DNA of 4,727 bases from Escherichia coli (GTDB lineage: Bacteria > Pseudomonadota > Gammaproteobacteria > Enterobacterales > Enterobacteriaceae): the NCBI RefSeq assembly GCF_011045215.1, contig NZ_CP049203.1. The stretch is one strand, 5' to 3'. How positions within the stretch are numbered: the first letter of the stretch is position 1; each line of letters opens with the position of its first letter. Under the pieces are notes generated by a model that did not search any database, was not told the DNA's origin, and worked only from the letters and a program-made list of their open reading frames with translations. Positions 59 to 808 of the stretch are shown piece after piece. The position numbers were made by a program, and so were the translations under genes.

Positions 59-808
59 TTAACGCTTATCTCGCAACTGCGCAGCTGTATCTTTATTTCT
101 CTGATCACCTCTTTGATGTAAATTTCGATGGCTCTCTTGTGCAGCCGTCTCCCAGTCACCACGATTAACTGCAGCATTGAAATTAGGAAAATCTTTAGAT
201 AACTTAGGGATACCTAAATTAAACCCCATGTCAACCAACGCTGTTTTCCTTGAATTAGAAAAACCATCATAACCAGAATACAAAGAACGCAATCCCTTCT
301 CTGTCACTTGAACATCACTAATACATAAACCGATAACAGCATTATTTGATAAATGTAAGTTCATAGGAACTTGTCTAGAATCTTTTTTAAAATTATTAAA
401 CGCCTCTGTAATTTCCTCTTTAGATGCGGAAACCTCTTTTTCCATATCATCACCATGAGCATGCCATGTATGTGTTCTTGAAAATGGAAGGGATGCAGCC
501 ATATCAGGCGTAGATAGTAAATGACCGATTCCAACAGTAATATTTCCCTCACTGTCTTTGTACATTGTGTTTTTAAAACCTTCATGAGATTTCAAATTAT
601 TAACACACATAGTCATATAAAAACCATCATAACTCCTAGTGGAGGAAATATTTATGTGTGTCTTATCAGAAATGCCCTCATGACTATTCCCTCCAGAGTG
701 TCCACCATAGCTACTATGATTATCACCATCATAACTATGAATCGTGCCATAAGGGGTATCATGATCGTGCCATCCCGGACCTTGATTAGAACTTTCAATA
801 CCGCTCAT
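59..808 (-). CDS. Bacteriocin-like muramidase: Gly/His/Ser/Asp/Tyr-rich N-terminal region (aa 1-65) plus T4-lysozyme-type (GH24) catalytic domain (aa ~66-249)
   Basis: This is track ORF 59..898 with the start trimmed to the ATG at 808 (residue 31 of the track ORF). That ATG is preceded by AAAGAGGAAattaatATG, with GAGG 8 nt upstream. Codons 809-898 lie over the promoter and LexA box. Residues 71-100 (NLKSHEGFKNTMYKDSEGNITVGIGHLLST) align nearly residue for residue with T4 lysozyme 6-35 ([30 protein letters not shown]). E76, D85 and T91 keep the spacing of T4L E11, D20 and T26. The C-terminal RKTALVDMGFNLG...FPNFNAAVNRGDWETAA parallels T4L RRCALINMVFQMG...FTNSLRMLQQKRWDEAA. There is no N-terminal signal peptide. 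Confidence 0.85.
   Translation of the reverse strand: MSGIESSNQGPGWHDHDTPYGTIHSYDGDNHSSYGGHSGGNSHEGISDKTHINISSTRSYDGFYMTMCVNNLKSHEGFKNTMYKDSEGNITVGIGHLLSTPDMAASLPFSRTHTWHAHGDDMEKEVSASKEEITEAFNNFKKDSRQVPMNLHLSNNAVIGLCISDVQVTEKGLRSLYSGYDGFSNSRKTALVDMGFNLGIPKLSKDFPNFNAAVNRGDWETAAQESHRNLHQRGDQRNKDTAAQLRDKR

What the first reader, a model, noticed from the sequence alone, without database searches (positions are those of the whole stretch)
614..808. A 65-residue Gly/His/Ser/Asp/Tyr-rich N-terminus with a TolB-box-like GPGW, too short for a classical receptor-binding domain
Seen: MSGIESSNQGPGWHDHDTPYGTIHSYDGDNHSSYGGHSGGNSHEGISDKTHINISSTRSYDGFYM has low complexity, seven His in the first 51 residues and no long hydrophobic run. 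Established: Tol-dependent colicins start with Gly-rich, intrinsically disordered translocation domains. The E-colicin TolB box centres on DGSGW. Group B toxins, pesticin included, instead carry a TonB box of the (D/E)T(M/I/L)xV type, which I do not find here. Inference: import information may be compressed into one disordered segment joined directly to the enzyme. That would make this an unusually minimal colicin-like toxin. The His/Asp richness could also point to metal binding.
Basis: partly seen in the sequence, partly recalled or inferred. Interest (0 to 1): 0.6.

Follow-up and report, generated by a model that had tools for sequence, protein, structure and literature searches.

The report
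Short import tag on lysozyme bacteriocin
A small E. coli plasmid encodes a colicin-like toxin in which a disordered tail of about 45 residues is joined directly to a phage-type lysozyme; the tail carries a 20-residue motif shared with cloacin DF13, which suggests that a very short, swappable tag can carry an enzyme across the bacterial outer membrane.

Summary
Window 614-808 (minus strand) encodes the quoted 65 residues, with 7 His in the first 51 and no hydrophobic run. The segment is not uniform. Residues 1-43 are predicted disordered, and residues 44-65 belong to the conserved GH24 (T4-lysozyme-like) body. Within the tail, residues 8-27 (NQGPGWHDHDTPYGTIHSYD) are the best-conserved part of the protein across 24 homologues. 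The Gly/Ser/His linker (residues 28-43) varies.

GPGW is not a canonical TolB box: the Asp, Ser/Thr and Ser-Ser-Glu of DG(S/T)GWSSE are missing. It is clearly homologous to cloacin DF13 residues 40-66 and to related DNase bacteriocins. There the motif sits where colicin E3 has its TolB box. Cloacin DF13 is listed as needing TolA, TolQ and TolR but not TolB.

The same lysozyme body occurs with other N-termini. One is colicin A residues 1-45, including its crystallised TolB box.

The context is a colicin operon: a LexA box, a periplasmic-type immunity gene and a lysis gene (decayed here). There is no TonB box and no receptor-binding domain.

Verdict: an uncharacterised group-A-style lysozyme bacteriocin with a minimal, exchangeable import module.

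The parts
59..808 (-). Toxin gene, 249 aa: a disordered N-terminal import module followed by a GH24 (T4-lysozyme-like) muramidase domain.
680..808 (-). Residues 1-43: the exchangeable, predicted-disordered import module. This is the part of the finding that is truly a 'tail'.
   Evidence: AlphaFold2 pLDDT is below 50 for residues 1-7, 9-13, 17-21 and 28-43. This stretch is replaced by unrelated sequences in other family members, while everything from about residue 40 onward stays the same.
728..787 (-). Residues 8-27, NQGPGWHDHDTPYGTIHSYD: the conserved cloacin-DF13-type epitope and proposed Tol-binding site. GPGW is at 770-781.
   Evidence: Identity to the window is 86% across 24 homologues, against 64% for the enzyme domain. 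The motif profile scores 32.3 bits against cloacin DF13 residues 40-66, with 0 of 2000 shuffles reaching that score. BLASTP E-value is 1e-5. The DNase bacteriocins P0070 and P0071 are found at E = 1e-4 across a library of 1.8 billion proteins.
680..727 (-). Residues 28-43: a variable Gly/Ser/Asn/His linker. It is a candidate membrane-spanning spacer or porin-lumen binding stretch.
   Evidence: Identity is 48% and column entropy 1.82 bits, with length variation between homologues. This block has the lowest pLDDT, with a mean of 29 for residues 31-40. The proposed function is inference.
614..679 (-). Residues 44-65: a junction shared by all N-terminus types. It is an N-terminal extension of the folded enzyme body (strand 51-54, helix from residue 62).
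   Evidence: It aligns in every family member, whatever the N-terminus type. The mean pLDDT per ten-residue block is 63 for residues 41-50 and 90 for residues 51-60.
62..613 (-). Residues 66-249: the GH24 lysozyme domain. Catalytic residues are Glu76 (581-583), Asp85 (554-556) and Thr91 (536-538). A beta-hairpin insertion spans residues 110-127 (428-481).
   Evidence: E76 and D85 are invariant and T91 nearly invariant. They align with T4 lysozyme in the stretch EG..YKD.EG..T.GIGH.
852..867 (.). LexA (SOS) box CTGT-N8-ACAG, just downstream of the toxin promoter. On the minus strand the -35 TTGACA is at 893-898, and a weak -10 TAAGTA follows at 870-875 after a 17-nt spacer.
   Evidence: Pattern search: 2 matches in the window against 0.06 expected by chance. 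The hexamers were read directly from the sequence. The generic promoter scan did not call this promoter because the -10 is weak.
4204..4709 (-). Immunity gene, assuming the window is a circular plasmid so that it lies directly downstream of the toxin gene. The ORF as it stands is 4204-4683. The likely true start is the ATG at 4707-4709, which is one base out of frame across a T9 run (4689-4697).
   Evidence: Homologues sit next to the toxin gene in E. coli, Klebsiella and Raoultella plasmids. They have Sec-type signal peptides. P0073 from other assemblies reads MLKRFFFCAMILFSGSIYA-SVSIF in one frame. The junction sequence was read.
4063..4200 (-). Decayed colicin-lysis gene remnant downstream of the immunity gene.
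   Evidence: It aligns with the annotated lysis gene of p1303_5 (..ANYIRDVQGGTVAPSSS.. against ..GNYVTKAGNGWASPPS..), but has a stop codon in the signal peptide and no lipobox Cys.
3..39 (.). 13-bp inverted repeat (GATGTATTTCATC / GATGAAATACATC, 11-nt loop) between the toxin stop codon and the immunity ribosome-binding site.
   Evidence: Read from the sequence. Function was not tested.

Best explanation
The gene is an SOS-inducible, plasmid-borne colicin-like bacteriocin. Its killing domain is a T4-type lysozyme that must reach the periplasm of a target cell. Residues 1-43 form an intrinsically disordered, exchangeable translocation module of the group A (Tol-dependent) kind.

Proposed steps (all inferred unless marked otherwise):
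1. After release from the producer, the tail threads through an outer-membrane pore, most likely a general porin.
2. The roughly 20-residue Gly/Ser/His linker spans the membrane.
3. The conserved epitope at residues 8-27 is exposed in the periplasm, where it captures a Tol protein. My first choice is TolA directly, as in colicin N, because the homologous motif belongs to cloacin DF13, which is listed as TolAQR-dependent and TolB-independent. TolB is my second choice, because the motif sits at the TolB-box position.
4. Proton-motive-force-driven Tol action pulls the unfolded lysozyme in.
5. The lysozyme refolds and cuts peptidoglycan.
6. A secreted (periplasmic) immunity protein protects the producer.

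Shown here: the disorder prediction, conservation of the motif, homology of the motif to cloacin-type bacteriocins, swapping of the module between family members, the lysozyme fold with its catalytic residues, and the operon context.

Inferred only: porin threading, the identity of the Tol partner, and the absence of a separate receptor.
For: - Disorder: pLDDT is below 50 over most of residues 1-43.
- Conservation: residues 8-27 are the most conserved stretch of the protein (86% against 64% identity; entropy 0.56 against 1.21 bits). They are conserved across Escherichia, Klebsiella, Enterobacter, Citrobacter, Rahnella and Serratia. That pattern fits a conserved periplasmic partner better than a strain-specific surface receptor.
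- Homology of the motif: cloacin DF13 residues 40-66 score 32.3 bits, with 0 of 2000 shuffles as high. The DNase bacteriocins P0070 and P0071, which carry the Pfam Cloacin T-domain, also match. The cloacin DF13 and ColE3 disordered tails align so that SGPGW..TPN falls on DGSGW..NPW.
- Cloacin DF13 is tabulated as using OmpF and TolAQR (PMC4033612).
- Module swapping: P0036 carries colicin A residues 1-45, including KGDGTGWSSERG (PDB 3IAX_B, E = 8e-15). P0028-type N-termini match the first 21-26 residues of colicin K/S4-type pore formers. Every identifiable donor is a group A colicin.
- Context: ColE1-type backbone with Rop, a LexA box, and a toxin-immunity-lysis order in relatives.
- Precedent: colicin N imports with a porin-binding site plus a 23-residue TolA box in a disordered tail (PMC7335789).
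- Geometry: about 33 extended residues span about 11 nm (PMC3390615). Residues 28-50 could therefore cross a 5-6 nm membrane.
Against: - No binding or killing data exist for any family member.
- The motif has no significant similarity to any structurally defined TolB-binding or TolA-binding epitope.
- How a toxin without a receptor-binding domain achieves affinity and target specificity is unexplained. Colicin N and klebicin E still have a globular central domain.
- The TolB-independence of cloacin DF13 rests on one old genetic study, seen here only through review tables. I could not read the original paper.
- In this particular plasmid the lysis gene is decayed and the immunity start is out of frame, so this copy may not be an active producer.
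- AlphaFold2 hints at a weak beta-hairpin at residues 13-26, so 'fully disordered' is an approximation.
Confidence: 0.68

Rival explanations
1. One reading: residues 9-20 (QGPGWHDHDTPY) are a working TolB box. They would dock in the TolB beta-propeller as the ColE9/ColA DG(S/T)GWSSE(NNPW) epitope does, and import would depend on TolB.
For: - The motif sits at the TolB-box position by transitive alignment: query to cloacin DF13, then cloacin DF13 to ColE3.
- G-x-G-W, then four residues, then [NT]-P-aromatic has the same spacing as ColE9 G36-S-G-W39 ... N44-P45-W46. W39 and W46 are key TolB contacts.
- The best local placement of the motif profile on ColE3 is exactly residues 35-47.
- Rahnella relatives read DGPGW.
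- A sister protein, P0036, carries a genuine ColA TolB box on the same enzyme.
Against: - The residues whose alanine substitution abolishes ColA activity (D11, T13, E18) correspond to Q9, P11 and H16 here.
- Position 9 varies freely in the family (Q, E, K, H, S, T, N, D).
- The profile score against ColE3 is -5.7 bits, and 1332 of 2000 shuffles score as high. ColA scores 1.9 bits, with 101 of 2000 shuffles as high.
- No PDB chain is hit at E up to 10.
- Cloacin DF13, the characterised carrier of the homologous motif, is listed as TolB-independent.
Confidence: 0.28
2. The conserved motif is a cell-surface recognition element rather than a periplasmic epitope. It would bind a porin lumen or an outer-membrane receptor, and so replace the missing receptor-binding domain. 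Energy coupling would occur elsewhere or not at all.
For: - The protein has no separate receptor-binding domain, yet something must supply binding to the target cell.
- Porin-binding sites of ColE9 and ColN lie in disordered tails and share little sequence with each other, so similarity searches cannot exclude one here.
Against: - The motif is near-invariant across genera whose porins and receptors differ.
- In cloacin DF13 the receptor (IutA) is bound by a separate coiled-coil R-domain (Pfam E2R135), so the homologous motif there is not the receptor binder.
- In this family it is the Gly/Ser-rich linker, not the motif, that varies between hosts.
Confidence: 0.15
3. The His/Asp-rich tail is mainly a metal-binding segment (for example Zn2+ or Ni2+) that regulates or stabilises the enzyme, rather than an import signal.
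For: There are 7 His and 6 Asp in the 65 residues. H16 and H24 are conserved.
Against: - Four of the seven His are kept in only 8-29% of homologues.
- Whole-module replacement by His-poor tails (ColK/S4-like, ColA-like) leaves the enzyme body unchanged.
- GH24 lysozymes need no metal (established knowledge).
- No metal-binding family was hit.
Confidence: 0.05
4. The tail serves the producer cell rather than entry into the target. It could be a release or export signal, or an autoinhibitory or immunity-docking segment.
For: The protein has no signal peptide and must leave the cell somehow. Nothing has been tested experimentally.
Against: - Relatives carry a dedicated colicin lysis gene for release.
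- The immunity protein has a signal peptide and would meet the toxin in the periplasm.
- The swapped-in modules come from the translocation ends of colicins A and K/S4.
Confidence: 0.05

Closest known systems
Cloacin DF13 (klebicin A) and related nuclease bacteriocins with the Pfam 'Cloacin' translocation domain
   Same: They share the roughly 25-residue motif (D)PNxGxGW..HTP(Y/N)G.I(H/R)(S/N)Y in a Gly-rich disordered N-terminus. Both are on small ColE1-type plasmids with SOS control and a lysis gene.
   Different: Cloacin DF13 has 561 residues. Its motif lies at residues 40-66, behind an OBS1-like head, and is followed by a folded T-domain (PF03515), a coiled-coil receptor-binding domain and an rRNase. 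Here the motif is at residues 8-27 and is joined through about 20 residues to a lysozyme. No PF03515 domain, no R-domain and no nuclease are present.
Pesticin (Yersinia pestis Pst)
Colicin A / colicin E9 TolB-box translocation epitopes
   Same: Both are short linear epitopes centred on G-x-G-W, near the N-terminus of a disordered Gly-rich tail. A sister protein, P0036, carries colicin A residues 1-45 on the same lysozyme.
   Different: The core DG(S/T)GWSSE is not kept (QGPGWHDH). The essential Asp, Ser/Thr and Glu are absent, and there is no significant profile similarity.
Colicin N
   Same: Colicin N is a small group A toxin whose disordered tail carries a porin-binding site and a 23-residue TolA-binding box. 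It imports through OmpF without TolB. It is the best mechanistic precedent for what I propose here.
   Different: Colicin N has 387 residues, a globular receptor-binding domain (residues 90-185) and a pore-forming warhead. I could not verify any sequence similarity to it.
Engineered lysin-bacteriocin fusions (pesticin-T4 lysozyme hybrid; lysocins)
   Same: In both cases a phage-type lysozyme is delivered across the outer membrane by a bacteriocin import segment.
   Different: Those constructs are man-made and use folded receptor-binding domains with Ton-dependent receptors. This is a natural family with a disordered tag of only about 43 residues.
Colicin Z
   Same: Similar size (237 aa), a small plasmid, a single SOS box, and reported peptidoglycan degradation.
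   Different: Unrelated. Colicin Z has a four-helix membrane immunity protein without a signal peptide, encoded in the opposite orientation. Import is CjrC/CjrB/ExbBD-dependent, and no lysozyme homology is described.

Membership tests
Canonical TolB box (ColA / ColE2-E9 TolB-binding epitope) | Core sequence DG(S/T)GWSSE | tested here: not met
   The window has QGPGWHDH at residues 9-16. Only G, G and W are shared. A regex for DG[ST]GW finds nothing in this protein, but does find P0036 and P0040. The definition is taken from PMC2821528.
Canonical TolB box (ColA / ColE2-E9 TolB-binding epitope) | Functionally essential Asp, Ser/Thr and Glu (ColA D11, T13, E18; the matching core residues in ColE9) | tested here: not met
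   The corresponding residues are Q9, P11 and H16. Position 9 varies freely in the family.
Canonical TolB box (ColA / ColE2-E9 TolB-binding epitope) | Central Trp, and the distal N-P-W anchor of the extended ColE9 box | tested here: inconclusive
   W13 is invariant. T18-P19-Y20 lies at the same spacing as N44-P45-W46, and P19 and Y20 are conserved in 100% and 96% of homologues. However, cloacin DF13 has N at the aromatic position.
Canonical TolB box (ColA / ColE2-E9 TolB-binding epitope) | Detectable sequence similarity to known TolB boxes | tested here: not met
   The motif profile scores -5.7 bits against ColE3 residues 1-130 (1332 of 2000 shuffles as high) and 1.9 bits against ColA residues 1-45 (101 of 2000). 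No PDB chain is hit at E up to 10.
Canonical TolB box (ColA / ColE2-E9 TolB-binding epitope) | Binds the TolB beta-propeller; killing needs tolB | not testable with these tools
   This needs ITC/SPR with TolB and killing assays on tolB mutants.
Cloacin DF13-type disordered-tail motif | Significant sequence homology to cloacin DF13 residues 40-66 | tested here: met
   32.3 bits, with 0 of 2000 shuffles as high (maximum 9.4). BLASTP: 11 of 20 residues identical, E = 1e-5. P0070 and P0071 score 40 and 39 bits, with library-wide E-values of 1.3e-4 and 4.6e-4.
Cloacin/colicin E nuclease bacteriocins (Pfam PF03515 T-domain family) | Folded T-domain (PF03515), R-domain and nuclease | tested here: not met
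   Pfam finds only PF00959 in the window protein. Cloacin DF13, P0070 and P0071 do hit PF03515.
Group A (Tol-dependent) colicin-like bacteriocins | Small multicopy plasmid and an SOS/LexA-controlled promoter | tested here: met
   ColE1-type backbone with Rop. CTGT-N8-ACAG at 852-867, downstream of a TTGACA -35.
Group A (Tol-dependent) colicin-like bacteriocins | Lysis (release) gene in the operon | tested here: inconclusive
   Present and annotated in p1303_5, in Klebsiella plasmids and in P0020 contigs. In the window only a decayed remnant remains.
Group A (Tol-dependent) colicin-like bacteriocins | Gly-rich, intrinsically disordered N-terminal translocation domain | tested here: met
   pLDDT is below 50 over most of residues 1-43. 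Alternative tails come from colicins A and K/S4.
Group A (Tol-dependent) colicin-like bacteriocins | Central receptor-binding domain | tested here: not met
   The fold begins at about residue 48 and is the lysozyme itself. No other domain is found.
Group A (Tol-dependent) colicin-like bacteriocins | Killing requires the Tol proteins | not testable with these tools
   This needs killing assays on tolA, tolB, tolQ and tolR mutants against tonB and exbB mutants.
Pesticin family | N-terminal TonB box (DTMVV, residues 3-7) | tested here: not met
   No [DE]T[MILV]xV match in the protein or in the first 80 residues of any homologue.
Pesticin family | FyuA-binding R-domain and a pesticin-type activity domain | tested here: not met
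GH24 / T4-type lysozymes | Pfam PF00959 above the gathering score, the T4 lysozyme fold, and the catalytic Glu/Asp/Thr | tested here: met
Colicin Z | Four-transmembrane immunity protein in the opposite orientation; similarity to colicin Js; CjrC dependence | tested here: not met

The most novel reading that the evidence does not exclude
This is a natural class of bacteriocins without a receptor-binding domain. In this class a disordered tag of 45 residues or fewer is enough to carry a folded enzyme of about 200 residues across the enterobacterial outer membrane. The tags are interchangeable cassettes (cloacin-type, ColA-type, ColK/S4-type and others). The cloacin-type 20-residue motif is a previously undefined Tol-binding epitope, possibly the missing TolA-binding site of cloacin DF13.
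Probability: 0.35. Interest if true: 0.8.

Novelty: new variant of a known kind. Interest (0 to 1): 0.62.

Why it matters
If the roughly 43-residue tail is sufficient for import, it is among the smallest natural devices known for taking a folded enzyme through the Gram-negative outer membrane.

- It would be a ready-made, swappable tag for delivering lysins against E. coli, Klebsiella and Enterobacter. Current engineered fusions use whole receptor-binding domains.
- It gives a clean system for asking what the minimum requirements for Tol-dependent import are: one epitope, one spacer, and a cargo that only has to reach the periplasm.
- It would assign a function to the conserved cloacin DF13 motif, whose partner has not been defined in anything I could find.
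- It shows that phage lysozymes were recruited into colicin-like toxins at least twice, once in pesticin and once here.
- The family is currently annotated only as 'hypothetical protein' or 'glycoside hydrolase family protein', so bacteriocin surveys miss it.

Tried and rejected
- Colicin Z. Its size and plasmid type are similar, so I considered it. I rejected it after reading the paper: it has a four-transmembrane immunity protein, the opposite gene orientation and no lysozyme homology.
- Word-indexed protein search with the 65-residue tail alone. It returned only fragments of the same family.
- tblastn of the tail against plasmids. It found only the same family and missed cloacin DF13. I retrieved the cloacin DF13 sequence by querying with the sequence recalled from memory and then reading NC_002119 itself.
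- Profile of the tail against all PDB sequences. No hit at E up to 10.
- The P0020-type tail (…DGYYHIEITGGNNS…) reminded me of the colicin N TolA box. Neither PDB sequences nor plasmids gave a match, so that resemblance remains unverified memory.
- NCBIfam, and Pfam on the immunity proteins. Nothing informative.
- The generic promoter scan did not call the toxin promoter. I read the promoter by eye.
- Megablast of the gene against complete E. coli genomes found nothing. The sensitive mode found relatives at 79% identity in 12 of 5426 genomes.
- I could not open Thomas & Valvano 1993 or the 2007 'Colicin biology' review. The Tol requirements of cloacin DF13 are therefore cited from a secondary table.
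- Five literature searches for a description of this lysozyme-bacteriocin family found none. The library lacks most subscription journals, so absence is not proof.
- I did not model the immunity protein. Only near-identical homologues could be submitted, so the alignment would have been too shallow.
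Full report
WHAT THE WINDOW IS
The 4727-base window behaves as a complete small ColE1-type plasmid.
- About 55% of it (roughly 1116-4000) matches the replication and Rop backbones of many E. coli plasmids. ORF 2892-3086 is Rop (Pfam E = 3.5e-31).
- An identical immunity-like protein is on record from an E. coli contig of exactly 4727 bp.
- The backbone has 54% G+C. 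The toxin gene has 37% and the immunity gene 34%, so they form an acquired cassette.
- If the plasmid is read as a circle, the cassette runs on the minus strand in this order: promoter and LexA box (893-852), toxin (808-59), a 13-bp hairpin (39-3), immunity gene (4709-4204), and a decayed lysis gene (about 4200-4063).

CHECKING THE OBSERVATION
- The minus-strand ORF 59-808 encodes 249 residues. Its first 65 residues (window 614-808) are exactly as quoted.
- Composition: G+S+H+D+Y+N+T make up 75% of the segment, against 43% elsewhere. Entropy is 3.54 bits, against about 4.0 elsewhere. There are seven His in the first 51 residues. There is no hydrophobic run.
- No TonB-box pattern occurs in the protein.
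- The ATG at 806-808 is the real start. It has a GAGGA 7 nt upstream, and the homologues begin at the same Met. The longer TTG-initiated reading runs into the promoter.

THE TAIL HAS FOUR PARTS, NOT ONE
An AlphaFold2 model was built from a 38-sequence family alignment (mean pLDDT 81.5).
- pLDDT is below 50 for residues 1-7, 9-13, 17-21 and 28-43. It rises to 63 for residues 41-50 and to 90 or more from residue 51.
- Pfam PF00959 is above its threshold. The catalytic Glu76, Asp85 and Thr91 are invariant or nearly so.

Conservation was measured in 24 homologues that share this type of tail:

| Residues | Identity to the window | Column entropy (bits) |
|---|---|---|
| 8-27 | 86% | 0.56 |
| 28-43 | 48% | 1.82 |
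| 44-65 | 50% | 1.65 |
| 66-249 (enzyme) | 64% | 1.21 |

So the 'low-complexity' tail contains the most strongly conserved 20 residues of the whole protein. The consensus is N-x-G-x-G-W-x-D-H-x-T-P-Y-G-x-I-H-S-Y-D. Residues 44-65 are shared by family members with completely different N-termini and belong to the enzyme body. Only H16, H24 and H43 of the seven His are conserved.

THE FAMILY AND ITS SWAPPABLE TAILS
- About 45 proteins of roughly 250 residues share the lysozyme body. They come from E. coli, Klebsiella, Enterobacter, Citrobacter, Raoultella, Rahnella, Serratia, Kosakonia, Lonsdalea and others. Most are on small plasmids.
- In complete E. coli genomes a relative occurs in 12 of 5426, always on a plasmid, annotated only as 'glycoside hydrolase family protein'.
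- Upstream of about residue 40 the family splits into unrelated tail types.
- The P0036 tail is colicin A residues 1-45, including the crystallographically defined TolB box KGDGTGWSSERG (PDB 3IAX chain B, E = 8e-15; definition). P0040 has DGTSW.
- P0028-type tails match the first 21-26 residues of colicin K, colicin S4 and other pore formers. The E-values are weak, but every match lies at a gene start.
- Two further types (P0020/P0024 and P0025/P0027) have no identified donor.
- In relatives the gene order is toxin, then a gene of about 160-170 codons with a Sec-type signal peptide, then an annotated colicin lysis gene.
- This is the modular evolution typical of colicins. Every donor that can be identified is a group A, Tol-dependent colicin. 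This is the strongest evidence that the short tail carries the import information.

WHAT THE GPGW MOTIF IS
- A profile of residues 1-33 was searched against 1.8 billion representative proteins. Apart from the family itself and one repeat protein (P0069, matched only over profile positions 16-29 and not followed up), it found two large bacteriocins, P0070 and P0071 (E = 1.3e-4 and 4.6e-4). Both carry the motif at residues 31-56, ahead of a Pfam Cloacin translocation domain. P0070 also ends in a colicin-type DNase domain.
- Cloacin DF13, read from NC_002119, has TDPNSGPGWGTTHTPNGDIHNYNPGEF at residues 40-66. The profile scores it at 32.3 bits, while the best of 2000 shuffles reaches 9.4. BLASTP gives 11 of 20 identities, E = 1e-5.
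- Against colicin E3 the profile scores -5.7 bits, no better than shuffles. Against colicin A residues 1-45 it scores 1.9 bits, and 5% of shuffles do as well. A profile search of all PDB sequences finds nothing.
- Mapped on the TolB-box core DG(S/T)GWSSE, the window has QGPGWHDH. The Asp, Thr/Ser and Glu whose alanine substitution abolishes colicin A activity are Q, P and H here.
- The motif is therefore not a canonical TolB box.
- It is nevertheless the positional counterpart of one. HMMER aligns the disordered tails of cloacin DF13 and colicin E3 (E = 2.6e-14) with SGPGW..TPN on DGSGW..NPW. The window keeps an aromatic residue (Y20) where ColE9 has its anchoring W46.
- Cloacin DF13 is tabulated as using IutA, OmpF and TolA, TolQ, TolR, without TolB (PMC4033612).

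HOW IT MOST LIKELY WORKS
Shown:
- a T4-type muramidase with an intact active site
- a disordered tail of about 43 residues, whose 20-residue core is under stronger constraint than the enzyme and is shared with cloacin-type nuclease bacteriocins
- tails that are exchanged with those of group A colicins
- an SOS box (CTGT-N8-ACAG at 852-867; 0.06 matches expected by chance)
- a neighbouring gene for a secreted protein that diverges faster than the toxin (56% against 88% identity to p1303_5), as immunity genes do.

Inferred:
1. After SOS induction and release, the tail enters a porin.
2. The Gly/Ser/His linker spans the membrane. About 23 residues extend to about 7-8 nm, using the 33-residue to 11-nm estimate.
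3. The motif engages a Tol protein in the periplasm.
4. The unfolded enzyme is pulled in, refolds and cleaves peptidoglycan.

Estimated probabilities:
- About 0.7-0.8 that the tail is an import module.
- About 0.65 that import is Tol-dependent.
- For the direct partner: TolA about 0.4, TolB about 0.3, something else about 0.3.

TolA is my first choice for three reasons. The characterised carrier of the motif does not need TolB but must contact the Tol system somewhere. Colicin N shows that a 23-residue TolA box in a disordered tail suffices. The weak beta-hairpin that AlphaFold2 draws at residues 13-26 would suit strand addition to TolA domain III, although that last point is inference.

The unsolved problem is target-cell binding. 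There is no receptor-binding domain. Binding must come from the tail, from the family-specific junction (residues 44-65), or from the beta-hairpin insertion at residues 110-127.

COMPARISON WITH WHAT IS KNOWN
- Function: it works like pesticin, a lysozyme-fold toxin aimed at periplasmic peptidoglycan and countered by a dedicated immunity protein (Pim). It is not a pesticin. It has no TonB box, no FyuA-binding domain and no Pfam pesticin hit, and it is closer to T4 lysozyme.
- Tail and genetics: these are group A colicin-like, but the central receptor-binding domain that defines the colicin architecture is absent.
- Klebicin E and colicin N, the small porin-using toxins, still keep a globular central domain.
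- Five literature searches found no description of this family. The library is incomplete, so this is a weak negative.

I rate it a new variant of a known kind. The kind (a colicin-like bacteriocin with a lysozyme warhead) is known. The architecture (a swappable Tol-type tag joined directly to the enzyme) and the cloacin-type epitope as a defined unit appear to be undescribed.

CAVEATS FOR THIS COPY
- The lysis gene is decayed.
- The immunity gene's likely start (ATG at 4707-4709, with a GGGGGAG ribosome-binding site) is one base out of frame across a T9 run. An independent metagenome contig has the same T9. Other assemblies give an in-frame protein with a good signal peptide (P0073).
- This plasmid may therefore be a weakened or phase-variable producer. 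That does not affect the reading of the tail.

VERDICT
'Minimal colicin-like toxin with import information in a short disordered tail' is well supported by comparative evidence. 'TolB-box-like' is right about position and ancestry, but wrong as a statement of family membership and uncertain as a statement of function. 'Metal binding' is weak. Interest: 0.62.

Noticed in passing
window 4683-4718 (minus strand); T9 run at 4689-4697: The immunity gene's best start (ATG at 4707-4709, after a GGGGGAG ribosome-binding site) reads MLKRFFFVQ and then a stop. The main ORF is one base out of frame across a run of nine T. With ten T it would read MLKRFFFCAMILFSGSIYA|SVSIF, a good Sec signal peptide. An independent JGI contig (L010) also has T9. 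Other assemblies (P0073) have the in-frame form. The cause could be a homopolymer sequencing error, phase variation or transcriptional slippage.
   Followed up: partly
window about 4063-4200 (minus strand): This is a remnant of a colicin lysis gene. It aligns with the annotated lysis gene of p1303_5, but has a stop codon in the signal peptide and no lipobox cysteine. This plasmid probably cannot release its toxin efficiently.
   Followed up: partly
window 3-39: A perfect 13-bp inverted repeat with an 11-nt loop lies between the toxin stop codon and the immunity ribosome-binding site. It has no T-tract. It could be a partial terminator or an RNA-processing or stability element that sets the toxin-to-immunity ratio.
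   Followed up: no
window 428-481 (minus strand), residues 110-127: The lysozyme domain carries a confidently modelled beta-hairpin insertion (SRTHTWHAHGDDMEKEVS). It includes the nearly invariant H118-G119 of the widely shared HGHGD stretch. The hairpin, together with the N-terminal strand at residues 51-54, is a candidate surface for immunity or receptor binding. That the hairpin is absent from T4 lysozyme is my reading from memory of the T4 structure, not a tool result.
   Followed up: no
window 59-808 and 4204-4683, compared with L004 (p1303_5): Against the closest complete plasmid, the toxin is 88% identical in protein sequence (79% in DNA) but the immunity protein only 56%. That is the fast toxin-immunity co-divergence typical of bacteriocins. 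The window's own allele is absent from 5426 complete E. coli genomes.
   Followed up: partly
L001 4811-5452 (Rahnella) and L006 2087-2713 (P0036 contig): Some family members have a different neighbouring gene of 208-214 codons on the opposite strand instead of the same-strand gene of about 160 codons. The Rahnella product (L001) starts with a signal peptide; the L006 product was not translated. This suggests at least two unrelated immunity solutions for one lysozyme fold.
   Followed up: no
window 3035-3050: A second exact CTGT-N8-ACAG match lies inside the rop gene (CTGTGACAGCGTACAG). It lacks the AT-rich centre of real LexA sites and is probably chance.
   Followed up: no
window about 1370-1600: This backbone stretch is dense in repeated GCACCGT / CAGCACCG / CCAGCAC motifs and inverted copies. 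It looks like an array of protein-binding repeats (for mobilisation, resolution or replication control). It was not analysed.
   Followed up: no
P0029 (family member), residues about 28-45: Its tail contains NIHWGGRSGHGNNSGH. This resembles the IHWGGGSG(H/R)G stretch that follows the TolB box in colicin E3 (printed), which I recall from memory as the OmpF-binding site 2 of colicin E9. It is another hint that these tails are assembled from known colicin import epitopes.
   Followed up: no
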